NCBI GenBank assembly: GCA_963774015.1
Contig: CAVZDH010000001.1
Location: 451,064-515,063, forward strand
Length of the DNA: 64,000 nt
Origin: an uncultured delta proteobacterium
Lineage (GTDB): Bacteria; Desulfobacterota; Binatia; UTPRO1
Direction of reading: 5' to 3'
In this document: in pieces, positions 43,111 to 59,383 of the stretch
Layout of the letters: each line of letters starts with the position of its first letter
How positions within the stretch are numbered: the stretch's first letter is position 1
Position numbers and translations under genes: made by a program
Notes under the pieces: model-generated
The model's input: only the letters and a program-made list of their open reading frames with translations
Database searches by the model: none
Told to the model about the DNA's origin: nothing

Positions 43111-45533
<2,423 letters not shown>

Positions 45534-45757
45534 GCGGGTGCCTCCTCCAAAAACTCGAGGCGGGAAGGGAGGACAGCCCGACCAGCCTCTAAGGTTTCGA
45601 GTGGTTGGCCGCCCGGACGAGAAGGCAAGGACGCCGTGACGTCTGCTTCCCGCGAGCGCTTCTGCGCACTCCCGACGAACTTGCCGGCCGCCCGAGGACG
45701 GGCCGGCATGAAAACCGGCGTTGTCTAGCATCGGACGGGGGGAATTGCGAGAGCGCG

Positions 45758-45767
45758 GCCGCGTGGG
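45758..45767. repeat. Left copy of 10-bp flanking direct repeat GCCGCGTGGG (candidate target-site duplication)
   Basis: Identical 10-mer at 51086-51095; left copy abuts the outer end of the left inverted repeat. Confidence 0.55.
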
Positions 45768-45779
45768 TAGTGTCTCAGT

Positions 45780-46377
45780 GTCTCATTCTGGGAGGGTGGA
45801 ACCCCTCACCTTCAGGTGACGCCTTCAGGAGGCTTGCGGTACGGTGGGCGGCATGCGGACCTACCGGCGCGCGTCGCACAGTGTGTATGAGCTGCACTAC
45901 CATTTCGTGTTCACCACGAAGTACCGCAAGCCGGCGTTGACGGGCGATGTGGCCCTCGAAGTGCGCGGGATGGTGCGACAGATTTGTCGGGCGAACGACA
46001 TTGAGATTCTGGCGGGGCACGTACGTCCCGATCACGTGCACCTGTTGTTGAGCGTGCCGCCGCATCTGGCTCCGAGTCGGGTGATGCAAGCGATCAAAGG
46101 GAAGACCTCGCACCGGCTGCTCATGGACCACCGGAAGTTGAGGGCGGCGTTCTGGGGCCGGCATCTGTGGAGCCGGGGGTACTTCGTGTGCAGCAGCGGC
46201 AATGTGACTGATGAGATGATCGCGGAGTACATCCGGACGCAAGATGCCGAGCCCCAGGACGACGACCGGTTCAAGGTGAGTGAGTGACATGGTCATGAGC
46301 TTGCAGCGCACGGCGAGGGTCTTCAGGCGCCTTTAGGCGCCCGCGAACCCGCCGCCTTTAGGCGGCGGAGGGCTCAG
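45780..46377 (+). mobile_element. IS200/IS605-family insertion sequence (tnpA only), inserted within the left inverted repeat of the IS1-family element
   Basis: Encodes Y1 HUH transposase; subterminal hairpins (left: TCACC-TTCA-GGTGA about 45806-45820; right: GGCGCC-TTTA-GGCGCC 46326-46341 and GCCGCC-TTTA-GGCGGC 46351-46366); boundaries +/- 5 bp. Confidence 0.7.
45853..46287 (+). CDS. tnpA: IS200/IS605-family transposase TnpA (Y1 HUH)
   Basis: HUH motif in YELHYHFVFTTKYRKP, conserved DHVHLLLSVPP and catalytic Tyr region (RGYFVCSSGNVTDEMIAEYI). Confidence 0.9.
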   Translation: MRTYRRASHSVYELHYHFVFTTKYRKPALTGDVALEVRGMVRQICRANDIEILAGHVRPDHVHLLLSVPPHLAPSRVMQAIKGKTSHRLLMDHRKLRAAFWGRHLWSRGYFVCSSGNVTDEMIAEYIRTQDAEPQDDDRFKVSE

Positions 46378-46482
46378 TTTGATTCCGGGCGCCCGATTCC
46401 GACCCGCGCAACCGCCGACGACGTGTGCTAGCTTCCGCGACGATGCCGAAGGGCCCCCCGAGGCGAGAAGCGCCCCGCTGAC

Positions 46483-46671
46483 GTGATCGGCAACGCCGTG
46501 CATGTCATGCGCATCGCGACCGGCGAGGTGGAGGATCAGGTGCGCGACCCGGCGAAGGAGCACATGCGCCAGGGCGGGCTCAAGGGCGGCGTGGCGCGGA
46601 AGAAGGCGTTTTCACCTGAGAAGCGGAAGGCGATCGCGAAGAAGGCTGCGCGTGCGCGCTGGGGGAGTTAG
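46483..46671 (+). CDS. Small hypothetical protein with basic Lys/Ala-rich C-terminus
   Basis: 62-aa ORF; C-terminus GGLKGGVARKKAFSPEKRKAIAKKAARARWG; converges on the PIN-like gene; coding status uncertain. Confidence 0.3.
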   Translation: MIGNAVHVMRIATGEVEDQVRDPAKEHMRQGGLKGGVARKKAFSPEKRKAIAKKAARARWGS

Positions 46672-47108
46672 TCCCCTCTTCGACGGCTTCGACGATGCAG
46701 GGTCAGTAGGTCTGTTTCCGTGTAAACCTTCACTATTTCCCCATCAGCCGAAATCTTGGTGAAGAACGGGGCCGGGTAGCGGTTGATCACGCGGGCCATG
46801 CCTCGCAACCCGTCGTCAAACGCTTGCGCCATTCGGTCGGCAGTCATGTCCGCCCTGGTGAACCCAAACAGGCGAGCCCGTGATTGTAGGATCTCGAGCC
46901 GTTCACTGACGTCGCTGACTATGCCGTCGTTCTTGGTGAGGCCGATCCAACCGCTTCGACCCACAAGACGAATCCAGGGTTCGTCGCCGCCCTCTGGCTG
47001 CTGATCCAGGTTGTTGCCCGCGAACAGAAGGGCGTGTTCGCGAATAGGCCAACCGCGTTCGCGTAACAGAGTCGGGAGTCTCCGACCGAGGGATCGATCG
47101 GTGAACAC
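46668..47108 (-). CDS. DUF5615-like PIN-type protein (putative toxin)
   Basis: 146 aa; N-terminus FTDRSLGRRLPTLLRERGW resembles the DUF5615 (Mut7-C/PIN-like) start; immediately downstream of and co-oriented with a DUF433 gene, the usual partner. Confidence 0.5.
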   Translation of the reverse strand: MFTDRSLGRRLPTLLRERGWPIREHALLFAGNNLDQQPEGGDEPWIRLVGRSGWIGLTKNDGIVSDVSERLEILQSRARLFGFTRADMTADRMAQAFDDGLRGMARVINRYPAPFFTKISADGEIVKVYTETDLLTLHRRSRRRGD

Positions 47109-47128
47109 TCCGGTCTGTGCAACGATCG

Positions 47129-47896
47129 CTAGGCTGCGTTCTCGTAGAGCAACGCGTCCGTGATGTCCGCCAGCGGCCGGCAGTAGTCCTCGGCGAGCGC
47201 CTCGATCGATTCACCGGCGCGTTTTCGTTCAGCCACGATTCGGGTACGGATATCGGTTCCGGCGATCACGGGTCGCCCATAGGCGTAGCGTGGGTGAATC
47301 AGGATGCGTCGGGCACTCGGAGCGGGGCCATCGATCTGGGCTTCTGTAGCGAAGGGAAACACGCCGATAGCGCCTGCCGGGTCGAATTGAATGCGTTCCA
47401 AGTAGCGGATTAGGACGTCACGCATGCCAACCTGGGCAACCGATGGGCTATCGGAGATATTCAACACAACCGCATCTTCGAGCGAATCCAGAAACAGACT
47501 GTACCCGTCCGTCAGCATCCGCGACGTTGCTAACGGATGTTCGGATTTGAATTCCCTGCGCAGATGCACTATTGCGTTGCGTACTTTCGGTAGCTTGATC
47601 CCGTAACGACGCCGTACCGAATCGAGTACAAAAACTTCCACGAGATTCGTAAACGACAGCAAACCGCGTTCGCGGTCAGCTATCTTGATCAGCGGATGCC
47701 ACGTCCGGTGACCGTCAGATACCGGATAGTCTCGACCGTACACCCAGGTGCGAACGGTGCTCGCCGGAACCTTCAAGTAGCTCGCGGCGCTAGCGACTGG
47801 GTAGTTCGGGACATGTCGCGGATCGACATCGCGGTAGCTCAGTATCGTGTCCGCTTTTGGCATCTTGACGTACCTGCACCAAGCATACACGGGCAC
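47129..47896 (-). CDS. HTH plus DUF433 domain protein (putative antitoxin/regulator)
   Basis: C-terminal DUF433 signature RILIHPRYAYGRPVIAGTDIRTRIVAERKRAGESIEALAEDYCRPLADITDALLYE; N-terminal HTH-like segment (AASYLKVPASTVRTWVYGRDYP); central region unassigned. Confidence 0.65.
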   Translation of the reverse strand: MPVYAWCRYVKMPKADTILSYRDVDPRHVPNYPVASAASYLKVPASTVRTWVYGRDYPVSDGHRTWHPLIKIADRERGLLSFTNLVEVFVLDSVRRRYGIKLPKVRNAIVHLRREFKSEHPLATSRMLTDGYSLFLDSLEDAVVLNISDSPSVAQVGMRDVLIRYLERIQFDPAGAIGVFPFATEAQIDGPAPSARRILIHPRYAYGRPVIAGTDIRTRIVAERKRAGESIEALAEDYCRPLADITDALLYENAA

Positions 47897-48060
47897 GGCA
47901 GTTCAAGGGAGAGCCGTTTGCATTCGCTAAGTTAGCGGACTGCCGAGAACATCAAGGGGCTGGTCGTTCTCCGGTCGTGCGTCGAGACGGTAGATTACCG
48001 GGCGACAATCAGGTGAAACTTTTGCTTGACACTCAAGTATTATTGTCATATCATTGCGGC

Positions 48061-48969
48061 ATGAACAAGTTGCCGGTTGCCACGCGGGTCCAGATCCTCT
48101 CGATGCTCTGCGAAGGCTCCTCGATGCGCTCGATCAGCCGGGTCGCTGACGTCTCGATCAACACCGTCGCCCGCTACCTCGTGATCGCCGGCAAAGCGTG
48201 CAGCGCGTTCCACGACGTCACCGTTCGCAACGTCGCTGCGAAGCGCGTGCAGTGCGACGAAATCTGGTCGTTCGTCGGGATGAAGGAGAAGGCCGCGAAG
48301 GCGAAGGCGTCGAAGGACGAGCGACCCGCGAACGTCGGCGACGTGTGGACGTGGACAGCGATCGACGCCGACTCGAAGCTGATCGTGTCGTGGCTCCTCG
48401 GCGGTCGCGATGCAGGGTGCGCGTGGGAGTTCATGACCGACGTCGCGTCGCGGCTTGCGAACCGCGTGCAGCTCACGACCGACGCGCACAAGGCGTATCT
48501 CACGGTCGTGCCCGAGGCATTCGGCTTCAACGTCGACTACGCGCAGATCGTCAAGGTCTACGGCGCCGATCCGAAGGAGGATCAGCGCCGCTACTCCCCG
48601 GCGCAGTGCCTCGGCGCCGAGAAGCTGCACATTCACGGCTACCCGAAAGACGAACACATCTCGACGTCGTATATCGAGCGCAGCAACTTAACGCTCAGAA
48701 TGGCGAACCGCCGCTTCACGCGGTTGACCAATGCGTTCTCGAAGAAGCTGGAGAACCACGCGCACATGGTCGCGCTCTACACGTGCTGGTACAACTTCGT
48801 GAAGATGCACAAGACGATTGGCTGCACCCCCGCGATGGCGGCCGGCGTGATCGACACGCTCTGGTCGATGACCGATCTCGTGGCGCTCGTCGACAAGTAC
48901 GACGACGCGCAGCCGCGCAAGAAGGCGGGGCGTAAGCCGAAGGCGACCGATCCGGGTTCTCAGTCATGA
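48061..48969 (+). CDS. IS1-family transposase (fused InsA-like HTH and InsB-like DDE domain)
   Basis: InsB-like blocks VQCDEIWSFVGMKEK, WTWTAIDADSKLIVSW, LTTDAHKAYL, IERSNLTLRMANRRFTRLTNAFSKKLENHAHMVALYTCWYNFVKMH match E. coli IS1 InsB pattern (VQSDELWTFVG...IERHNLNLRQ...); N-terminal HTH VATRVQILSMLCEGSSMRSISRVADVSINTVARYL. Confidence 0.85.
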   Translation: MNKLPVATRVQILSMLCEGSSMRSISRVADVSINTVARYLVIAGKACSAFHDVTVRNVAAKRVQCDEIWSFVGMKEKAAKAKASKDERPANVGDVWTWTAIDADSKLIVSWLLGGRDAGCAWEFMTDVASRLANRVQLTTDAHKAYLTVVPEAFGFNVDYAQIVKVYGADPKEDQRRYSPAQCLGAEKLHIHGYPKDEHISTSYIERSNLTLRMANRRFTRLTNAFSKKLENHAHMVALYTCWYNFVKMHKTIGCTPAMAAGVIDTLWSMTDLVALVDKYDDAQPRKKAGRKPKATDPGSQS

Positions 48970-49154
48970 GCCCGAAGGTCCGACGAGTGCTCGTCGGCTT
49001 CATTATCAGCTTCCTGATTCTTACTGGCTGCGAGGTCGCTGCGCGACTCTATCTCGACTGGGTTAAGACGAGCGGGGCATCCCGAGCCTGCACTGCACTC
49101 GGCGGCACGTGGGATGCGCCGGCCCGGCATTGCGCGAGCCCGGAATCAAACTGA
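48966..49154 (+). CDS. Small hydrophobic peptide ORF translationally coupled to the IS1-type transposase
   Basis: ATG overlaps transposase stop (ATGA); predicted TM or lipoprotein-like segment VLVGFIISFLILTGC; 3' end overlaps right inverted repeat; coding status uncertain. Confidence 0.3.
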   Translation: MSPKVRRVLVGFIISFLILTGCEVAARLYLDWVKTSGASRACTALGGTWDAPARHCASPESN

Positions 49155-49162
49155 GACACTAG
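49139..49162. repeat. Right terminal inverted repeat of IS1-family element
   Basis: GCCCGGAATCAAACTGAGACACTA is the exact reverse complement of the reconstructed left repeat. Confidence 0.6.
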
Positions 49163-51085
49163 TGCGCCGGTCAAAACCGGCAAGGTGTTGTGGATGAAAG
49201 AGCCACACGATGAAGGAGTAGCGACCCACATCGGCCCCGAGTCATGCGTCGCTGTCCGTGAGGGCAGAGGCGAAGCGTTGACAGGGGTACGTGCAGGCCA
49301 GCCATGGAGCCGCGAAAATCAATTATAGCCTCGGGTGCCGACGCTCTTAGTGTAAGCGGAAGGCAACATCGCAGTGCGTCGATATCGCGAGAGGCGGCGG
49401 ACCCGGCGCGGTCGAAGACCCTGCGCATGCACGGAAACACTTTGCACGGGAACCGGGAGATCCCGCCACCGTCTGGGAGCCGGAGTGGCCCAGACCGCAT
49501 CGGGAAGTCGAGAGACGCAATCCGATGACGCACGGTGACGGGAAGTCGGACACCGCCGTAGTACCGAGAGAAGCTGCCGAACAAAGCTGCGGAACCAGCG
49601 GCGGAGGCGGTGGAGGGAAGGGCGGTGGCCAAGGGGAAGACGCTCGAGCGTAACACGCTCCGGACGCAGAGCCGGGAAGGTGTGCCCAGCGCGCTCGAGC
49701 GGATACGAGAGGCCGCAAGGCAACAGAAGCAGCTGCGTTTCACCGCGCTCCTGCACCACGTCTACGACGTCGAACGGCTGCGGCGGGCCTACTACGCACT
49801 GAAGCGAGAGGCGGCGGCGGGAATCGACGGGGAGACGTGGAAGCACTACGGCGAGCAGTTGGGAGAAAATCTGCAAGACCTGTCCCAGCGGCTCAAACGG
49901 GGAGCGTACCGAGCCAAGCCTGTACGGCGGGCGTACATCGAGAAGGCGGACGGGCGGCAGAGGCCGCTCGGCGTTCCCGTGCTGGAGGACAAGATCGTCC
50001 AGCGCGCCGTCGTCGAGGTGCTCAACGCCATTTACGAACAGGACTTTGCGAGGTTCTCGTATGGATTCCGCCCGGGGCGCGGACCGCATGATGCCCTGAA
50101 CGCGCTGACGGTGGCGATCCAGACCAGAAAGGTGAGCTGGGTGCTCGACGCGGACATCAGAAGCTTCTTCGACACGCTGGAACACAGCTGGTTGGTGAAG
50201 TTCGTCGAGCATCGGGTGGCAGACCGGCGCATCGTGCGCCTCATCCAGAAGTGGTTGAGGGCCGGGGTGCTGGAAGAAGGTCGGCGGACACGTAGCGAGG
50301 TAGGGACGGTACAGGGCGGAAGCATCAGCCCGCTGCTGGCCAATATCTACCTGCACTACGTGTTCGATCTGTGGACCCAGCGATGGAGAAAGAAGCAGGC
50401 GCGCGGACAGGTCATCGTCGTGCGCTACGCCGACGACTTCGTCCTTGGGTTCGAGCATCGCCACGAGGCCGAGCAGTTCCTCGTGGATCTCAAGCAGCGG
50501 TTTTCCCAGTTTGGCTTGGAGCTGCACCCGGAGAAGACCAGACTGATCGAGTTCGGGCGGTTCGCCGCCAGCAATCGCGATCGGCGAGGACAGGGAAAGC
50601 CCGAGACCTTCGACTTCCTTGGCTTCACGCACAGCTGCGGGAAGACGCGGAAGACGGGGAGCTTTGTGGTGCTGCGGCGAACGATGCGCAAGCGGATGGC
50701 GGCGAAGCTGCAGGAAGTGAAAGCCGAACTGCGACGACGTCGGCACACGACCCTTGGCGAGCAGGCGGAGTATCTGCGAGCGGTGGTGCAAGGGCACATG
50801 CGGTACTATGGCGTGCCCCGCAACTTTCCAGCGCTCAACGCGTTCCGCTGGGCGCTCGGCCGACTGTGGTGGCGGTCGTTAGGCCGCCGCAGTCAACGCG
50901 GCCGCATCCCCTGGCAGCGCATGACGCGTATCCTACGTCTGGCACTGCCGCGTGTTCGCATCTGTCATCCCTATCCGTCCTTGGACGCATCTCGTCAGAA
51001 CCTGAGGCAGGAGCCGGATGCGGTAATGCCGCACGTCCGGATCTGTGCGGGGGGCGCCGAGCGATCGGCGTCCCTACCGCGACCC
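49163..51085 (+). mobile_element. Bacterial group II intron (ribozyme plus intron-encoded protein)
   Basis: 5' end GTGCGCC at 49163 (consensus GUGYG); RT/maturase ORF; domain V-like hairpin at 51011-51043; GNRA-capped hairpin at 51050-51073; 3' end near 51083-51085 (CGAC/CC), boundary +/- 3 nt. Confidence 0.8.
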
Positions 51086-51130
51086 GCCGCGTGGGAGGCC
51101 CTCATGGCCGCTGCCGGGGCGGAGAGATAA
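49610..51130 (+). CDS. Group II intron-encoded reverse transcriptase/maturase
   Basis: RT domains 0-7 (RPLGVPVLEDKIVQRAVVEVLNAIYEQDFARFSYGFRPGRGPHDAL; DADIRSFFDTLEH; YADDFVLGF) and maturase X domain; no HNH endonuclease domain seen; computed ORF runs through domain V, so true C-terminus is uncertain. Confidence 0.9.
   Translation: MEGRAVAKGKTLERNTLRTQSREGVPSALERIREAARQQKQLRFTALLHHVYDVERLRRAYYALKREAAAGIDGETWKHYGEQLGENLQDLSQRLKRGAYRAKPVRRAYIEKADGRQRPLGVPVLEDKIVQRAVVEVLNAIYEQDFARFSYGFRPGRGPHDALNALTVAIQTRKVSWVLDADIRSFFDTLEHSWLVKFVEHRVADRRIVRLIQKWLRAGVLEEGRRTRSEVGTVQGGSISPLLANIYLHYVFDLWTQRWRKKQARGQVIVVRYADDFVLGFEHRHEAEQFLVDLKQRFSQFGLELHPEKTRLIEFGRFAASNRDRRGQGKPETFDFLGFTHSCGKTRKTGSFVVLRRTMRKRMAAKLQEVKAELRRRRHTTLGEQAEYLRAVVQGHMRYYGVPRNFPALNAFRWALGRLWWRSLGRRSQRGRIPWQRMTRILRLALPRVRICHPYPSLDASRQNLRQEPDAVMPHVRICAGGAERSASLPRPAAWEALMAAAGAER
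51011..51043 (+). ncRNA. Group II intron catalytic domain V
   Basis: GAGCCGGAUGCGG-UAAU-GCCGCACGUCCGGAUC closely matches the domain V consensus GAGCCGUAUGCGAU-GAAA-GUCGCACGUACGGUUC, including the AGC triad. Confidence 0.6.
51086..51095. repeat. Right copy of 10-bp flanking direct repeat GCCGCGTGGG
   Basis: Identical to 45758-45767; lies just 3' of the group II intron. Confidence 0.55.
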
Positions 51131-53758: not shown

Positions 53759-56700
53759 TCAGTCGGCCTTGGCGGCGAACGTCGTCGCGTCCTGCTTCTT
53801 GAAAGGCGCGCTGAAGACGGACTCCCAGCACGTGCCGGTCGCGTGGTTCACGAGCTGCACGCGCACGGGCGAGAGCAAGGCGGCGAGGCTCGGCGGCATG
53901 TCGAGCCGGTCCCCCTTGCCCTTCACCTGGATCTTGGCCTTGCCGGCGACGAGACCTTCGCGGAGCTGGAGCTGCGCGACGCCGTCCGGCGTGAGGTCGC
54001 CGTCCTTGTAGTCGAAACCCGTCTTCTTCTCGCGCCAGCACGCCTTGCCCTTGGCGCAGAAGCCGCCGGGCGGCACGATCGCCGTCGTGACGAGCCCGGT
54101 CGCGTCGTAGAGGCAGAGCTCGTAGCGGTCGGTGGTGAGCGGCTGCCCGAAATCGGCCTTCGTCGTGACGGCGCCCCTCGCCCACTTCCAGGCGAGCTGG
54201 TCCTTGGCGTCGGGGCTCTTGTCCTTGAGGAGCAGGCTCGCCTTGCCGGCGACGGCCGGCAAGCGGCAGCCGGCGAGCGGCGCCGGCGCGCACTCGCGGA
54301 GACAATCGGAGGAGCAGCCGTCGCCGCTCGCGGTGTTACCGTCGTCGCATTCCTCGGCGAGCTCGAGCACGCCGTCGCCGCAGGTCTGCACGTCGCAGGC
54401 GTCGCCCGTGCCGTCGCCGTCGGTGTCGCTTTGCGAGGGGTCGAAGGCCTCGGGACAATCGTCCTGCGCGTCCGGGACGCCGTCGTCGTCGGCATCGGCG
54501 GGCGTCGTCACGGCGGTCACGAGGGTCGGGAGGCAGCTCGCCCCGCTCGGGCAGTCGGGCGGCGTCGTCACCTCGGGACGACACGTCGCCGGCTGCCGCA
54601 GGATGCAGCGCCGGCAGTCGACGTCGGTCGCGCAGGCGAGCCCGGTGTAGCGCGTGCAGGTTCCGGTCGCGGTCGCGCAGGTGTCGAGGTCGCAGAAGGA
54701 GCCCGCGCCGCAGTCGGCGTCGACACCGCAGGGGATCGCGAGGTCGCAACGCCCGGCGGGGGCGAGGAAGACGCGCGTGTCCTCGGGCACGCGGAGCGGA
54801 TCCTGCCCGCCCGGGTCGACACGGCCGATCACCGTCACCGTCTCGGTGCAGAAGTCGTAGACCTGAATCACGAGGTCGCCGGGAAAGCCCTCGACGCTCA
54901 GGTCCTGGCCGCCCTGCTCGGCCTCGAGCGTCAGGAACGTCACCTTACTGCCGTCGATCTTGTAGGGTTCGCGCGGATCGCAGGCAGCGAGCCGGCACGG
55001 CGTCACCGCCTGGCGCACGTTCTTGAGCTCGCCGCTCACGGCGTCGTAGACCTGCAGCACGTCGTCGAGCGTATCGACGTCGGCCGGCACGCCGACGCCG
55101 CCGTTCAGGTTGGTGGCGTTCTCGGCCGCTTCGTTGGCGCTGAACGCCACGAGCTGCCGCGCGCCGCAGGTGGTCACCGCGGGCGCACCCAGCACGAAGT
55201 CGTCGGCCGCGACCCGGACGCCGGCCGTGCAGCTCGGCGCTCCGGGGCCGGTCGGCGTGCAGGCGAGCGGCGTGCCGGCGAGCGAGTACACCTGCAGCAC
55301 GCGGTCGGTCGCGTCGACGTCGGCGTTCAGCAGCGCGCCGCCCTGCACCGCCTCCGACGTGAGGAAGCCGACGACGTCACCGTTGATCGCGAGCGCCTCG
55401 CCGGCTTGCCCGGTGCTGATCCACGACCCCGCCGTCGCACCCGGGAGGGCATTCACCGCGACGACGTCGTCGCCGGCGTCGCCGTCGCCGTTCAGATCCG
55501 TTCCGCCGTCCGGGCATCCCGTGGTCACGGCGCCCGCCGTTCCGCACTCCGAGACGAGCGCCGCGAGCCCGCTCGTCGACGCCGCGACCGCCGTCGCCGC
55601 GCGCGCGAGGTTCACGACTGATCCGCCCTCCCAGAGCTGCACCACGTCGTCCGTCGTGTCGGCGTCCGGCGGGTTCAACGACCCGCCCGGACACGCGCCG
55701 GTCCCGACCGCCGACTCGGGCCGCAGGAACACCGCCGTCCCGTCGCTCGCCACCGCGACGTCGTCGGCGGGACAGAGCGTCGTCGTCGTCGCGCTCGCGG
55801 AATCGAGCACCTCGAGGACGGTGTCGTCGAGCGCGCCGTCGGCGAAGAGCGCATCGGCGCCGAGGGGGTCGGCGGGGTCAGTGCCGTGGACGAAGACGTC
55901 CCGGAAGCCGTTGGTGTCGTTGCCGACCCCGACGAGATTCGTCGCGTCGCTCAGGAACGCCACCTCGCGGGCGTCGCGCGACAGCCCGAGGAAGCCGTTC
56001 ACCGTACCACCTCCGCCGGTGGCCTCCTCGCCGGCGAGGCCGACGTTCACGCGCGTGGTCACGCCGCTCTCGCGGTCGGAGAGGAAGATGTCGCCGGCCC
56101 CGTTCGTGTCGAGCCCGGCGCCGAGGAGATTCGTCGCGCTGCTGTAGAACGCGACGTACCGCCCGTCCGGCGAGATCGTGACGTCGGTCGGCGGAGCGTC
56201 CGGGCTCGTCCCGCCGGGACCGCGTCCGACGAGCGTCGTCACCCCCGTCAAACGATCGTGGACGAAAGCATCGGTCGCGCCGTTGACGTCTGCTTCTGCT
56301 GTGAGATTGCTCGCGCCGCTCTCGAACGCGACGAAGCGACCGTCGGCGGACATCGTGACGCGAGAGAAGCCGGATGCGCCATTGCTCTCGATGCCGCCGG
56401 GTCCGATGCTGACCCGCTCGTTCGCACCGGTCTGCCGGTCACGCACGAAGACGTCCGAGACGCCGTTGGTGTCGAGACCCGGGTCGAGGAGGTTCGAAGC
56501 GGTGCTCGTGAAGGCGACGTAGCGCCCGTCGGCGGAGATGGCGGGCCACTCACCGGATCCGCTCGGCGGCTCCGCGCCGCCTGGACCGACGTCGACCCGC
56601 TCCGTCGTGCCGAGCAAGCGGTCGCGCACGAAGACGTCGCGGTTGCCGTTGGTGTCGCCACCCGGCCCGAGCAGATTGGTCGCATCGGACGCGAAGACCA

Positions 56701-59008
56701 CGAAGCGACCGTCGGCAGAGAGCGCCGGAATTACCGAGTGGCCGTCGCCTTCGAGGCCGCCGGGCCCGACGCTCACGCGCTCGGTCACGCCCGTCCCGAG
56801 ATCGTGCACGAAGACGTCGATGAAGCCGTTGGTGTCGCCCCCCGGCCCGAGCAGGTTGGTCGCATCGCTTGCGAAGGCGACGTGCTGCCCGTCGGCCGAG
56901 ATGGCGACGAACCCCGAACCTACGAACGGTGTGCCGTTGGCCTCGAGGCCGCCCGGGCCCACGCTCACGCGTGTCGTCGTGCCCGCCACGCGATCCCGGA
57001 CGAAGACGTCCTCGGCTCCGTTCGTATCGCCGCCCGGTCCGAGGAGATTCGCCGACGTGCTGGAGAAGGCGACGTACCGACCGTCTGCCGAAATGCCGAG
57101 GCCTGCGTTCGTCGAGCCGCCGCCCGCGCTCGCCTCGACGCCGCCCGGACCGAGGTTCGCGCGCCCGGTCGTCTGCTGCGCCGCTCCCGTCTCCGGCCGC
57201 CGGTAGAATACCTCGCCGCTCGCCACCATCAGGCCCTGCCCGTTGATCCGCGGCGCCGGGTCGACGACGCGCGGCGGGCTCAGGCTCGCGGTCACCTCGC
57301 CGGCGCCGAGCTTGAAGACGCGCAGGATCGCGTCCGCGCGGTCGTAGTCGCCGTTCTCGTCGCAGTAGTTCTGCGCTGCCTCCGACTCGAGGAAGGCGAG
57401 GACGTCGTTCTCGACCGCGACGGCGGGGAACGAGAACACGCCGTCCTGCACGCGCACGGCGGCGCGGCCCTCGGGCGTACCGGCGAGGCCGCACGCGGGG
57501 AGCGGCGCACCGCCGACCGCGAAGCCGTCGGGTGCGCCGAGCGGCTGCACGACGCCGGTCGCGCGGTCGCGGAGGATCGCGACTGCATCCAGCAGATCCG
57601 TGTCGCCGTTCCGCTGCACGCCGTCGATCGCCTCCTCGACGACGAACGAGCGAAGGTCCGGGCTCGCGGCGAGGCCGTCGAGCGGGACCGGCGTGTTGGC
57701 CTGGATGCTGTAGCCGACGCAGGCGTTGAAAGCCCCCGGGCAGTCGCCCGGGCCGCTGCACGCTTGATAGGGCGTGAGCTGGCAACGACGCGGGGCCGCG
57801 CGGTCGAGGTAGAGGCCGCCGGCCGTGCTCGCGCCGGCAAGGTCGTAGAGCGCGCCGCAGGGCGCGGCACCGCCGCAGTCGCCGTCGGTCGCGCAGGGGA
57901 GCGCCGGGTTGCCGACGCAGCTCGTCGCGCACGTTCCGCCCGGACAATCGAGGATGGTCGCGCAGCGCGCGCCCGCGTTCGCGCCGGCGCTGCACGTACC
58001 GTGGTGGCGCGCGACGCGGAGGATCGTGTAGGGCGCGTCGGTCGAGCCGAAGAAGCGCACGAAGTCGGAGGTGCTCGCCGATTGATCGAGCTGGGGCTCG
58101 AAGATCGGTCCGAGACGCTTCCCTTCGGGCGTGAAGCTCGTGAGGAACACTTGCGCCGGGATCTGCACCGGGAAGCCCACCGGCGCGCTGATCGCGGTGC
58201 TGAGGAGGCGCGGCACCGGTACGCGCGCTTGCGGCACGAGGATGCCTTGCCAGGCGATCGGCATCAGCACGTTGCCGCTCGCGTCGAGCGCGGCGCGGAG
58301 TTCCGGCGCCGTCGGGTTGCAGGGCGGGTCGAGGAAGCAGTCGCGCTGGTAGTCGTTCGGCGGCGGCAGCGCGGTGAAGCTCGCGAACTCGGGGTTCGGG
58401 ATCCCCGTGCCGCAGCTGCCGTCGTTCACGAAGAAGTCGTCGATGCAGGCGACCAGCCCGCTCTGCGCGGCGCACGGCACCGCCGCCAGGTTGCAGGGGA
58501 GCGGATCGGTGCGGCGCGTGACGGCGATCCGCGCCGGACCCGCGAGTGTGCGGTCGTCGCTCGGGGTGCCGACCGCGTCGTCGGTGTCGGGGAAGCGGAA
58601 GCCGAGCTCCACGTGCCCTTCGCGCTCGACCGTCGCGAGCCCCGCGGTCGCGTCGGCGACGCACGCGAGCATCGCGGGCGGGAGGTCGCAGGCCGCGAGC
58701 TGGTGTGCGAGCGCGTCGCAGTCCGCGTCGGGCGAGAGCACGCGGAGCGCGTTCGTGCCCGATCCCGGGAACGCCACCGTCACGACGTAGTCGCCGGTCG
58801 TGAGCGAGAGGCCGGGCGACCCGGCGGCGTCACAGGAGCGGAGCGCCACCGCGACGCGCTCGCCGGGCGCCGCGTAGGGCCGGTCGGTCGTCCCGAGGAC
58901 GCCGTTGAAGGAGGCAGTGGTGCCAGGGATCAAGTTGCACCCGGCCTGCACGATGCGCGGCAGGGCGAGCAGCAGCAGGATCGTCAAGAGCGAACGGGCG
59001 GCCCGCAT
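53759..59008 (-). CDS. Giant secreted protein (1749 aa): TolB-like beta-propeller repeats, thrombospondin type-3 calcium-binding repeats, myxo-type cysteine-rich repeat and conserved C-terminal domain
   Basis: Signal peptide MRAARSLLTILLLLALPRIVQAG; 9 or more tandem ~53-aa repeats (ISADGRYVAFSSTSANLLGPGGDTNGAEDVFVRDRVAGTTTRVSVGPGG); TSP3-like DADDDGVPDAQDDCPEAFDPSQSDTDGDGTGDACD; Cys-rich CGDGVLELAEECDDGNTASGDGCSSDC; C-terminal domain shared with the 5129-6851 protein. Confidence 0.85.
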   Translation of the reverse strand: MRAARSLLTILLLLALPRIVQAGCNLIPGTTASFNGVLGTTDRPYAAPGERVAVALRSCDAAGSPGLSLTTGDYVVTVAFPGSGTNALRVLSPDADCDALAHQLAACDLPPAMLACVADATAGLATVEREGHVELGFRFPDTDDAVGTPSDDRTLAGPARIAVTRRTDPLPCNLAAVPCAAQSGLVACIDDFFVNDGSCGTGIPNPEFASFTALPPPNDYQRDCFLDPPCNPTAPELRAALDASGNVLMPIAWQGILVPQARVPVPRLLSTAISAPVGFPVQIPAQVFLTSFTPEGKRLGPIFEPQLDQSASTSDFVRFFGSTDAPYTILRVARHHGTCSAGANAGARCATILDCPGGTCATSCVGNPALPCATDGDCGGAAPCGALYDLAGASTAGGLYLDRAAPRRCQLTPYQACSGPGDCPGAFNACVGYSIQANTPVPLDGLAASPDLRSFVVEEAIDGVQRNGDTDLLDAVAILRDRATGVVQPLGAPDGFAVGGAPLPACGLAGTPEGRAAVRVQDGVFSFPAVAVENDVLAFLESEAAQNYCDENGDYDRADAILRVFKLGAGEVTASLSPPRVVDPAPRINGQGLMVASGEVFYRRPETGAAQQTTGRANLGPGGVEASAGGGSTNAGLGISADGRYVAFSSTSANLLGPGGDTNGAEDVFVRDRVAGTTTRVSVGPGGLEANGTPFVGSGFVAISADGQHVAFASDATNLLGPGGDTNGFIDVFVHDLGTGVTERVSVGPGGLEGDGHSVIPALSADGRFVVFASDATNLLGPGGDTNGNRDVFVRDRLLGTTERVDVGPGGAEPPSGSGEWPAISADGRYVAFTSTASNLLDPGLDTNGVSDVFVRDRQTGANERVSIGPGGIESNGASGFSRVTMSADGRFVAFESGASNLTAEADVNGATDAFVHDRLTGVTTLVGRGPGGTSPDAPPTDVTISPDGRYVAFYSSATNLLGAGLDTNGAGDIFLSDRESGVTTRVNVGLAGEEATGGGGTVNGFLGLSRDAREVAFLSDATNLVGVGNDTNGFRDVFVHGTDPADPLGADALFADGALDDTVLEVLDSASATTTTLCPADDVAVASDGTAVFLRPESAVGTGACPGGSLNPPDADTTDDVVQLWEGGSVVNLARAATAVAASTSGLAALVSECGTAGAVTTGCPDGGTDLNGDGDAGDDVVAVNALPGATAGSWISTGQAGEALAINGDVVGFLTSEAVQGGALLNADVDATDRVLQVYSLAGTPLACTPTGPGAPSCTAGVRVAADDFVLGAPAVTTCGARQLVAFSANEAAENATNLNGGVGVPADVDTLDDVLQVYDAVSGELKNVRQAVTPCRLAACDPREPYKIDGSKVTFLTLEAEQGGQDLSVEGFPGDLVIQVYDFCTETVTVIGRVDPGGQDPLRVPEDTRVFLAPAGRCDLAIPCGVDADCGAGSFCDLDTCATATGTCTRYTGLACATDVDCRRCILRQPATCRPEVTTPPDCPSGASCLPTLVTAVTTPADADDDGVPDAQDDCPEAFDPSQSDTDGDGTGDACDVQTCGDGVLELAEECDDGNTASGDGCSSDCLRECAPAPLAGCRLPAVAGKASLLLKDKSPDAKDQLAWKWARGAVTTKADFGQPLTTDRYELCLYDATGLVTTAIVPPGGFCAKGKACWREKKTGFDYKDGDLTPDGVAQLQLREGLVAGKAKIQVKGKGDRLDMPPSLAALLSPVRVQLVNHATGTCWESVFSAPFKKQDATTFAAKAD

Positions 59009-59058
59009 CGGGATGTCCTCCAGAGTGCACGAGCGACGAAGCGGAGCCCGAGCACGAA

Positions 59059-59108
59059 GCAGATCGAACCTATCGAGGTGAAAACGTCGGTTCACGCACA
59101 AAGACTGC
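59059..59108. repeat. Left copy of ~50-bp imperfect direct repeat flanking a lower-GC cassette
   Basis: AGCAGATCGAACCTATCGAGGTGAAAACGTCGGTTCACGCACAAAGACTG vs 60071-60120 AGCAGATCGAATGACATCGAAGATTCGAACGTCAGTTCACGCAGAGATTG (~80% identity with small indels); on the minus strand the stop TGA of the right copy corresponds to CGA in this copy. Confidence 0.6.
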
Positions 59109-59383
59109 TCGAACCTTTGCACAGCCTTGGCTCCCTGCCAAAGAAAACGGCGACCAAGAACCTGCGCCAATTTAGTGCAACGAGAATCGCGGTCAGAGTT
59201 CTCGCGAAAAGCTTCGACGGACGTCTCCCCGCCGCTGCCGTCATCATCGTGTCCCGCGGCGTCGGCACCGGTTTGGCGAGGCGAAAGTGTCATCAGTCGG
59301 CCAGCGGTCTCACGGCGAGGTGCAGTGAGTTCTCCGAGCAGGTCGCGGAAGCCCCCGAGCGGTGGTCACGCCACTACCAAAGC

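What the first reader, a model, noticed from the sequence alone, without database searches (positions are those of the whole stretch)
49139..51095. Group II intron sits exactly at the junction between an IS terminal repeat and its target duplication
The intron 5' end (GTGCGCC, 49163) follows the last base of the right inverted repeat (49162), and its 3' end (about 51083-51085) is 1-3 nt before the second copy of the 10-bp flanking repeat. The IS terminus may itself have provided the exon-binding target, or this intron lineage homes to IS ends. Domain V (GAGCCGGAUGCGG-UAAU-GCCGCACGUCCGGAUC) and a GCGA-capped hairpin (51050-51073, possibly domain VI with a candidate bulged A near 51076) are readable. 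The RT ORF as computed reads through domain V into the 3' exon, so the true stop or a late frameshift needs checking.
Basis: partly seen in the sequence, partly recalled or inferred. Interest (0 to 1): 0.6.

Follow-up and report, generated by a model that had tools for sequence, protein, structure and literature searches.

The report
Group II intron inside IS1-family end
A self-splicing mobile intron has inserted two bases inside the terminal repeat of an IS1-family insertion sequence, and its close relatives always sit at that same site, so this is a real but already-known kind of parasite living on another parasite.

Summary
The intron is real. It runs from 49162 to 51083 (1922 nt, + strand), with Rfam hits to domain I and to domains V-VI, a structure supported by covariation, and an RT/maturase gene.

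It does not sit exactly at the junction between the IS repeat and the duplication. It lies 2 bp inside the right inverted repeat of an IS1-family element. The target duplication is 8 bp (GCCGCGTG), not 10.

EBS1 (49348-53), EBS2 (49319-25) and EBS3 (G49414) pair with exon positions -1 to -6, -8 to -14 and +1. All of these lie within the repeat. EBS1 and EBS3 are supported by covariation across 44-70 related introns.

Eleven distinct close copies in 15 metagenome loci sit at the same ...CTGA(G/C)NC(A/G)C(T/C)A^C(C/G) site of related ISs or ~190-bp MITEs. In a capped sample of genome contigs, 106 of 133 such ends are empty and read ...CTA-CC.

The RT read-through comes from a private 1-nt insertion at about 50985. 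The family stop codon is TGA at 51003-05.

The left repeat is split by an IS200-type insertion.

There is a precedent: RmInt2 homes to the ISRm17 inverted repeats. I rate this a new member of a known kind.

The parts
45758..45765 (.). Left copy of the 8-bp target-site duplication, GCCGCGTG
   Evidence: It is identical to 51086-51093. Related IS copies have 8-bp duplications directly outside the GG/CC tips.
45766..45778 (+). Outer 13 nt of the left inverted repeat (GGTAGTGTCTCAG), cut off from the rest of the repeat by an IS200-type insertion
   Evidence: Joined to 46378-46389 it forms a 25-nt perfect reverse complement of 49139-49161 plus 51084-85.
45779..46377 (+). IS200/IS605-family element of about 599 bp inserted in the left repeat after CTCAG. 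Its boundaries are ambiguous by 5 nt because CTCAG occurs at both ends. The tnpA gene is at 45853-46287.
   Evidence: NCBIfam transpos_IS200 scores 152.7 bits against a cutoff of 55. Hairpins are visible near both ends of the sequence.
46378..46389 (+). Inner 12 nt of the left inverted repeat (TTTGATTCCGGG)
   Evidence: The 17-nt sequence CTCAGTTTGATTCCGGG matches exactly at 46373-89 (+) and 49139-55 (-). Chance expectation in the window is 0.09.
46390..48060 (.). Passenger region of the IS. It holds ORFs 46668-47108(-) and 47129-47896(-), the latter with DUF433 and HTH_66 domains, and a sigma-70-like promoter at 48026-48054(+).
   Evidence: Related ISs with the same ends are 1.08-4.8 kb long, so passenger DNA is usual in this group.
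48061..48969 (+). IS1-family DDE transposase, 302 aa in a single ORF
   Evidence: Pfam DDE_Tnp_IS1 scores 29.3 bits (cutoff 24.1). NCBIfam transpos_IS1 scores 69 bits, below its cutoff of 100. Plasmid homologs at 53-62% identity are annotated 'IS1 family transposase'. 24 genome loci carry homologs next to the same repeat.
49139..49161 (+). Right inverted repeat up to the intron (CCCGGAATCAAACTGAGACACTA). It contains IBS2 (AAACUGA, 49148-49154) and IBS1 (ACACUA, 49156-49161).
49162..51083 (+). Group II intron, 1922 nt. Its 5' end is GUGCG and its 3' end is ...CCGCGAC.
   Evidence: Rfam hits. Seven close copies are all 1920-1921 nt with the same ends. The consensus structure has 108 pairs, 54 of them with compensatory changes.
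49319..49325 (+). EBS2 (UCAAUUA). It pairs at 5 of 7 positions with exon AAACUGA. Sister copies carry UCAGUUU, which pairs at 7 of 7.
49348..49353 (+). EBS1 (UAGUGU), which pairs with exon positions -1 to -6 (ACACUA)
   Evidence: Pairing is 85-100% at each of the six positions, with 4-5 pair types per position, over 39 distinct exons.
49414..49414 (+). EBS3 (G), which pairs with the first 3'-exon base, C51084
   Evidence: Paired in 93% of 44 loci, with 4 pair types.
49525..51005 (+). RT/maturase gene in domain IV. It would encode 492 aa once two private 1-nt insertions (49567 and 50985/6) are removed. The normal stop codon is TGA at 51003-05. The YADD motif is present.
   Evidence: TIGR04416 scores 362 bits and RVT_1 137 bits. 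Homologs are 491-498 aa and end ...HPYPSLAHLVRT*. The corrected ORF is 94.5% identical to P0001.
51011..51083 (+). Domain V (51011-51044) and domain VI (51047-51080), with the bulged branch A at 51076
   Evidence: RF00029 alignment. The fold has a free energy of -48.8 kcal/mol and a z-score of -4.4.
51084..51085 (+). CC, the outermost 2 bp of the right inverted repeat, separated from the rest of it by the intron. C51084 is IBS3.
   Evidence: All left ends start with GG. 106 of 133 empty ends read ...CTA-CC.
51086..51093 (.). Right copy of the 8-bp target-site duplication, GCCGCGTG

Best explanation
An IS1-family insertion sequence inserted between a pyrophosphatase-like gene and trmO and made an 8-bp duplication. 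It has 25-bp inverted repeats, GGTAGTGTCTCAGTTTGATTCCGGG, and is about 2.8 kb without its guests.

Later, a IIB-type group II intron whose RT carries no recognisable endonuclease domain retrohomed into the right inverted repeat of this IS, between ...ACACTA and CC. The intron RNA selects the site by base pairing: EBS2 with AAACUGA, EBS1 with ACACUA, and EBS3 with the C at +1. The whole recognised site (-14 to +1) lies inside the repeat, so any copy of this IS family, or of its MITE derivatives, is a target whatever the flanking DNA.

The intron has the same orientation as the transposase gene. It can therefore be transcribed from the transposase promoter and could splice from that RNA.

Steps that are shown: the intron's anatomy, the pairings and their covariation, the recurrence of the same site in independent contexts, and the empty sites.

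Steps that are inferred: reverse splicing into DNA; priming of cDNA synthesis by a nascent strand at a replication fork, as in other introns lacking the endonuclease; and loss of IS mobility because the repeat tip is now 1.9 kb away from the rest of the repeat.
For: - The intron is real. Rfam hits score 180 and 41 bits. The TIGR04416 RT/maturase model scores 362 bits. RNAalifold on 20 diverse copies gives 108 pairs, 54 of them compensatory.
- EBS1 pairs with exon positions -1 to -6 in 85-100% of 39 distinct exons, with 4-5 pair types per position.
- EBS2 in sister copies (UCAGUUU) is a perfect complement of AAACUGA.
- EBS3 at 49414 pairs with +1 in 93% of 44 loci, with 4 pair types.
- Close copies (88-92% nt identity) are L003, L004 and L081-L093. 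All 15 loci, which give 11 distinct 5' exons, end in ...CTGA(G/C)NC(A/G)C(T/C)A before the intron. Their 3' exons start CC, except L004 which starts CG. The flanks are otherwise unrelated.
- In six of these loci a matching left repeat, GGT(G/A)G(T/C)G..., lies 180-194 nt upstream, so the host there is a MITE.
- The capped genome scan found 133 occurrences of the end in many phyla. 106 are followed by CC and none by an intron. Paired ends have 8-bp duplications, and 24 loci carry a homologous transposase.
- Pfam found only RVT_1 in the RT, with no HNH or endonuclease hit. The RT is 492 aa.
- A promoter-like site matching 11 of 12 positions lies at 48026-54 on the intron's strand.
- Precedent: RmInt2 uses both inverted repeats of ISRm17 (PMC4615759).
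Against: - EBS2 in this copy has two mismatches to its site (5 of 7 paired).
- This copy carries 4 private 1-nt indels, two of them in the RT gene. As written, it may be a decaying copy rather than an active one.
- Nothing here demonstrates splicing, mobility or the priming pathway.
- The order of events cannot be read from the sequence. The IS may have arrived first and the intron later, or an IS already carrying the intron may have transposed.
- Short-read metagenome contigs can be chimeric across a 1.9-kb repeat. Some pairings of 5' and 3' flanks in L083-L089 are unreliable.
Confidence: 0.85

Rival explanations
1. The intron did not home here. An IS copy that already carried the intron inside its right repeat transposed as a unit to this site and made the 8-bp duplication.
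For: The CC tip lies outside the intron, so the duplication flanks the IS and intron together. Identical MITE interiors occur with different outer flanks in L083-L089. That could reflect movement of a MITE carrying the intron.
Against: The repeat tip would be 1.9 kb from the rest of the repeat, which should prevent normal end recognition. At least six different IS or MITE backgrounds carry the intron (window, L003, L081, L082, L091, L093), which requires repeated homing anyway. The left repeat is also split by an IS200-type element.
Confidence: 0.1
2. This is an ectopic, one-off retrotransposition that landed next to an IS end by chance.
For: Group II introns do occasionally insert at ectopic sites. 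L004 shows a related site with one EBS1 mismatch.
Against: EBS1 pairing here is a perfect 6 of 6. The same site is occupied in all 15 loci that hold close copies (11 distinct 5' exons), and EBS1 changes together with variant repeats (TGGTGG with CCACCA in L003; TAGTGG with CCACTA in L093).
Confidence: 0.03
3. Literal reading of the finding: the target is created by the junction of the IS end with its target duplication, so the intron recognises the IS end plus flanking DNA.
For: The 10-nt match GCCGCGTGGG begins only 2 nt after the intron.
Against: 3' exons beyond +2 are unrelated among copies. CC belongs to the repeat, since left ends start GG and 106 of 133 empty ends read CTA-CC. The duplication is 8 bp in all paired elements.
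Confidence: 0.02

Closest known systems
RmInt2 of Sinorhizobium meliloti GR4, a class D group II intron that homes to the inverted repeats of ISRm17 (Martinez-Rodriguez et al. 2014, PMC4615759; review PMC5894124)
   Same: It is an intron without an endonuclease domain whose natural target lies in the terminal inverted repeats of an IS. That gives two targets per element on opposite strands. It tolerates a weakened EBS2-IBS2 pairing, as this copy does. Head-to-tail tandem copies were seen for RmInt2, and I saw a tandem pair in relative L013.
   Different: The IS family differs (IS1 family here). The intron lineage is probably different too. I did not compare the RT with RmInt2 directly, and its best plasmid relatives are ltrA genes in Ralstonia, Burkholderia and Pseudomonas at 58-61% identity. 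Here the site is 2 bp from the repeat tip, and the repeat is conserved across many phyla and in MITEs. Mobility was shown experimentally for RmInt2 and has not been shown here.
RmInt1, which homes into ISRm2011-2 of the IS630 family (PMC5894124)
   Same: It is a group II intron that lives in a multicopy IS, and its insertion is thought to block IS spread.
   Different: PMC5894124 places the RmInt1 target within ISRm2011-2 but does not describe it as lying in the inverted repeats, as it does for RmInt2.
Class C (IIC) introns, which insert after terminators or into attC sites (PMC4424553)
   Same: They target a short structural or sequence motif that recurs many times, rather than a unique gene site.
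   Different: The review PMC4424553 describes IIC targeting as recognition of DNA motifs (terminators, attC). This intron has EBS1, EBS2 and EBS3 pairings, a 34-nt domain V, and no terminator hairpin just before the site.
IStrons, which are group I intron and IS200/IS605 chimeras (PMC4227781)
   Same: A self-splicing intron is physically joined to the end of a DNA transposon.
   Different: In an IStron the whole chimera is spliced out and moves by the IS transposase. Here the intron is an independent retroelement, and only the intron would splice.

Membership tests
Mobile group II intron (bacterial, ORF-containing) | Conserved 5' GUGYG and 3' AY ends | tested here: met
   GUGCG is at 49162-66 and ...GAC ends at 51083. 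Seven close copies have the same ends.
Mobile group II intron (bacterial, ORF-containing) | Domain V hairpin with the AGC triad and a 2-nt bulge, and domain VI with a bulged branch A 7-8 nt from the 3' end | tested here: met
   RF00029 scores 41.3 bits against a gathering score of 40. The fold matches, with z = -4.4. A51076 is 7 nt from the end.
Mobile group II intron (bacterial, ORF-containing) | Domain I-IV architecture supported by covariation | tested here: met
   RF02005 scores 180 bits over the full model. RNAalifold gives 108 pairs, 54 of them with compensatory changes.
Mobile group II intron (bacterial, ORF-containing) | EBS1/EBS2 (and EBS3 in IIB introns) complementary to the flanking exons | tested here: met
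   EBS1 pairs 6 of 6, EBS2 5 of 7 and EBS3 1 of 1. EBS1 and EBS3 covary across 39-44 contexts.
Mobile group II intron (bacterial, ORF-containing) | RT/maturase ORF in domain IV with a YADD active site | tested here: met
   TIGR04416 scores 362 bits against a cutoff of 300. YADD is present. The ORF needs two 1-nt corrections to be intact.
Mobile group II intron (bacterial, ORF-containing) | Self-splicing and retrohoming activity | not testable with these tools
   This needs RT-PCR and a mobility assay.
A named bacterial intron class (A-F, CL, ML) | Placement of the RT in a reference phylogeny, plus class-specific RNA features | tested here: inconclusive
   No HNH/endonuclease or GIIM Pfam hit. 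Solved IIC, CL and ML RTs all match about equally distantly, at E around 1e-36 to 1e-41. No reference set of classified RTs was available, and the literature I searched gave no mapping for RF02005. The class remains unassigned; the intron is IIB-type and has no recognisable endonuclease domain.
IS1 family insertion sequence (single-ORF or long-form group) | DDE transposase homologous to IS1 InsAB' | tested here: inconclusive
   Pfam DDE_Tnp_IS1 scores 29.3 against a cutoff of 24.1, but only over part of the profile. NCBIfam transpos_IS1 scores 69 bits, below its cutoff of 100. Homologs at 53-62% identity are named 'IS1 family transposase' in RefSeq plasmids.
IS1 family insertion sequence (single-ORF or long-form group) | Terminal inverted repeats starting GGnnnTG (family consensus recalled from ISfinder, not checked here) | tested here: met
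   GGTAGTG begins a 25-26 bp perfect repeat once both guest elements are removed.
IS1 family insertion sequence (single-ORF or long-form group) | Target duplication of 8-9 bp | tested here: met
   GCCGCGTG occurs on both sides. Duplications are 8 bp in L118, L143, L149, L171 and L204.
IS200/IS605 family (the element in the left repeat) | Y1 (HUH) TnpA, subterminal hairpins, insertion 3' of a short target without duplication | tested here: met
   transpos_IS200 scores 152.7 bits. Hairpins are visible near both ends. CTCAG lies both just before the element and at its right end. The exact ends were not verified against other copies.

The most novel reading that the evidence does not exclude
This intron belongs to an RT clade that has given up gene-specific homing sites in favour of short motifs that recur everywhere.

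One branch, which includes the window copy, lives only in the phylum-spanning inverted repeat of an IS1-family element and its MITEs. It sits 2 bp from the tip, where it should disarm that IS end.

About half of the wider clade has an EBS1 of GGAGG or AAGGAG. Those introns sit antisense, immediately next to the Shine-Dalgarno sequence of many unrelated genes, and show no conserved IBS2.

If this holds, targeting of the complement of the Shine-Dalgarno sequence would be a further kind of target specificity. The 2015 review (PMC4424553) lists three for bacterial introns: homing sites, terminators and attC sites.
Probability: 0.3. Interest if true: 0.65.

Novelty: new member of a known kind. Interest (0 to 1): 0.4.

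Why it matters
The locus shows in one place how mobile elements stack. An IS1-family element hosts an IS200-type element in one inverted repeat and a group II intron in the other.

The intron's whole recognition site lies inside a repeat that is conserved from Acidobacteriota to Bacteroidota and Proteobacteria. That gives it a portable, multicopy, probably harmless landing pad, and it should disable the IS end it occupies.

This extends the RmInt2/ISRm17 strategy to a different IS family and to MITEs. It also provides a natural series of EBS1, EBS2 and EBS3 retargeting events that could guide targetron design.

It does not change how group II introns are thought to work.

Tried and rejected
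- The repeat finder did not detect the inverted repeat because both arms are interrupted. Targeted pattern searches found it.
- Exact-sequence look-up of the window's transposase found nothing on record.
- I could not assign the intron class. PDB sequence matches were uninformative. Literature searches for RF02005 and for class descriptions gave no usable mapping. One paper was not held.
- A IIC-type, terminator-directed insertion is rejected. No terminator lies just before the site, EBS2 and EBS3 are present, and domain V is the standard 34 nt.
- An IStron-like chimera is rejected, because only the intron has ribozyme structure.
- I tried to decide whether the frameshifts are assembly errors. 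The neighbouring pyrophosphatase-like gene has at least 6 frame switches in 1.7 kb, but a 5.5-kb ORF nearby (53759-59293) is intact. The question stays open.
- Searches for prior reports of introns at IS1 or MITE ends, or antisense next to Shine-Dalgarno sequences, found none. The library does not cover subscription journals, for example Michel et al. 2007 in Biochimie on specialised lineages.
Full report
**What is in the sequence**

Rfam's curated thresholds give two hits on the + strand. One is group-II-D1D4-6 at 49197-49421, scoring 180 bits over the full model. The other is the domain V-VI model at 51009-51083, scoring 41.3 bits against a gathering score of 40.

The ORF between them matches RVT_1 and the group II RT/maturase equivalog TIGR04416 at 362 bits.

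It ends ...CCGCGAC at 51083, and the bulged A51076 lies seven bases before the end.

An RNAalifold consensus over 20 diverse relatives gives 108 pairs, 54 of them with compensatory changes. It covers domain I, a very small domain II, domain III and the base of domain IV, which holds the start codon.

**The IS and its true ends**

Upstream lies a 302-aa DDE transposase (48061-48969). It hits the IS1 models weakly. Plasmid homologs at 53-62% identity are annotated as IS1 family transposase.

The right end reads CCCGGAATCAAACTGAGACACTA and stops at 49161. Its reverse complement is found in two pieces on the left:
- TAGTGTCTCAG at 45768-78;
- CTCAGTTTGATTCCGGG at 46373-89, an exact 17-mer with a chance expectation of 0.09 in the window.

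Between the two pieces sits an IS200/IS605-type element whose TnpA scores 153 bits.

If that element and the intron are removed, and the GG before TAGTG and the CC after the intron are included, the two arms form a perfect 25-26 bp inverted repeat, GGTAGTGTCTCAGTTTGATTCCGGG. It is flanked by an 8-bp direct repeat, GCCGCGTG, at 45758-65 and 51086-93.

**Independent evidence that CC is the repeat tip**

The loci come from Acidobacteriota, Proteobacteria, Bacteroidota, Binatia and others.
- 106 of the 133 occurrences are followed by CC and then unrelated DNA. Chance would give about 6%.
- Where both ends are present, the elements are 1.08-4.8 kb, or are MITEs of 43-120 bp.
- Those paired elements have 8-bp duplications directly outside GG...CC: CCAAATCC, CTCCCGCC, CGTGGGGC, AAACTTTC and CGGCGCGG.
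- 24 loci carry a homolog of the window's transposase (43-77% identity) next to the repeat.

The intron lies inside the IS, and the 10-nt match is an 8-bp duplication plus GG.

**How the site is chosen**

I collected 80 metagenome loci with related RTs and 13 more from exact-protein look-ups.

*EBS1.* Aligning domain I shows that the hairpin loop at 49346-54 changes together with the last six exon bases. Positions 49348-49353 pair with exon positions -1 to -6 in 85-100% of 39 distinct exons, with 4-5 pair types per position. In the window, UAGUGU pairs perfectly with ACACUA.

*EBS2.* The internal loop after GAGCCGCGAAA carries EBS2. Sister copies have UCAGUUU, a perfect complement of AAACUGA at -14 to -8. 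The window has UCAAUUA, which pairs at 5 of 7 positions.

*EBS3.* G49414 pairs with the first 3'-exon base in 93% of 44 loci, with four pair types. This is the IIB-type EBS3.

The whole recognised stretch, from -14 to +1, lies inside the inverted repeat.

**The lineage homes to this repeat**

The close copies are 88-92% identical at the nucleotide level and come from 15 loci (L003, L004, L081-L093), which give 11 distinct 5' exons. All have a 5' exon ending ...CTGA(G/C)NC(A/G)C(T/C)A. Their 3' exons start with CC, except L004, which starts CG. The flanks are otherwise unrelated.

In six of these loci a matching left repeat lies only 180-194 nt upstream, so the host there is a MITE of about 190 bp.

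EBS1 tracks variant repeats. It is UGGUGG with CCACCA in L003 and UAGUGG with CCACUA in L093.

None of the 133 genome ends sampled is occupied, so occupancy is low.

**The RT reading frame**

Homologs are 491-498 aa. They begin MMHGDGKSD... and end ...HPYPSLAHLVRT*.

Against seven other copies, all 1920-1921 nt, the window copy has four private single-base indels: +1 at 49376, -1 at 49392/3, +1 at 49567 and +1 at 50985/6. The last two lie in the ORF.

Removing those two gives an open 492-aa frame that is 94.5% identical to P0001 and stops at TGA 51003-05, five bases before domain V. The read-through into domain V and the exon is therefore a frameshift effect and not a feature of the family.

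I cannot tell whether the indels are real. The neighbouring pyrophosphatase-like gene has at least six frame switches, but a 5.5-kb ORF nearby is intact.

**Likely mechanism**

A promoter-like site matching 11 of 12 positions lies before the transposase gene, on the intron's strand. Read-through transcripts could therefore supply precursor RNA.

Pfam finds no HNH or endonuclease domain in the RT. By analogy with RmInt1 and RmInt2, cDNA synthesis would be primed at replication forks (PMC4615759). That step is an inference.

The intron separates the repeat tip from the rest of the repeat, so it should disable that IS end. The left end is already split by the IS200-type element.

**Comparison with what is known**

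Group II introns in IS elements are well documented. RmInt1 homes into ISRm2011-2. [quoted passage not shown]

The present case uses the same strategy in a different IS family and, as far as I can tell, a different intron lineage. What is particular here is that the target repeat spans many phyla, includes MITEs, and lies 2 bp from the tip.

I could not assign the intron to a named class.

I rate it a new member of a known kind, with moderate interest.

**Side observation**

In the wider RT clade, 33 of 66 distinct 5' exons end in the complement of a Shine-Dalgarno sequence (CCUCC or CUCCUU), with a matching EBS1.
- 26-28 of these have CAT 4-10 nt upstream.
- 25 of 28 of the corresponding ATGs open an ORF on the other strand that is at least 60 aa long or runs off the contig. 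Many of these ORFs begin with what look like signal peptides.
- IBS2 is not conserved in this group.

I found no report of this in the searchable library.

Noticed in passing
L007, L010, L018, L022, L023, L026-L028, L030-L034, L037, L040, L041, L043, L046, L051, L068, L069 and others (5' exon just before the intron): About half of the wider RT clade (33 of 66 distinct sites) is inserted antisense directly beside a Shine-Dalgarno sequence. The exon ends CCUCC or CUCCUU and EBS1 is GGAGG or AAGGAG. CAT lies 4-10 nt upstream, and 25 of 28 of the corresponding ATGs open an ORF on the other strand that is at least 60 aa long or runs off the contig. No conserved IBS2 is seen. I found no published description.
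   Followed up: partly
window 45779-46377: An IS200/IS605-type element (TnpA only, about 599 bp) is inserted inside the left inverted repeat of the IS1-family element, right after CTCAG, and itself ends in CTCAG. The host IS therefore has a guest element in both of its ends.
   Followed up: partly
L170 4202-4420: Another IS1-family copy has its left repeat cut off after GGTGGTGTCTCAG and followed by unrelated sequence, while keeping an 8-bp duplication (GTCCAGGG). The break is at the same point as in the window. No IS200 TnpA was detected there.
   Followed up: no
window 43800-45560 (- strand): An H+-pyrophosphatase-like gene reads through at least six frame switches in 1.7 kb. It is either a decaying pseudogene or a product of local assembly indels. 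The IS lies about 235 bp upstream of its start, so the IS may have cut the gene off from its promoter.
   Followed up: partly
L013 23-1951 and 1953-3881: Two intron copies lie head to tail with one base between them, as reported for RmInt2 when EBS3 can pair with the intron's first G.
   Followed up: no
L005 1423-1460; L009 about 2160-2185: In L005 the intron is followed by CC, then 8 nt, then the left repeat of another IS1-like element (GGTGGCACCTCAGTTTGATG). In L009 the sequence TAGTGTAGTGTCTCAG lies 10 nt after the intron. IS ends appear to cluster around these introns.
   Followed up: no
L009, L014, L035, L039, L042, L050, L052-L055, L061, L063, L072: Some relatives do not start with GUGCG. 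The EBS1 pairing places their 5' splice site before GAAAGCG, GGAAGCG or GAGCG.
   Followed up: partly
window 48966-49154: A 62-aa ORF with a hydrophobic stretch overlaps the transposase stop codon (ATGA). Its own stop codon (TGA, 49152-54) lies inside the right inverted repeat, within IBS2.
   Followed up: no
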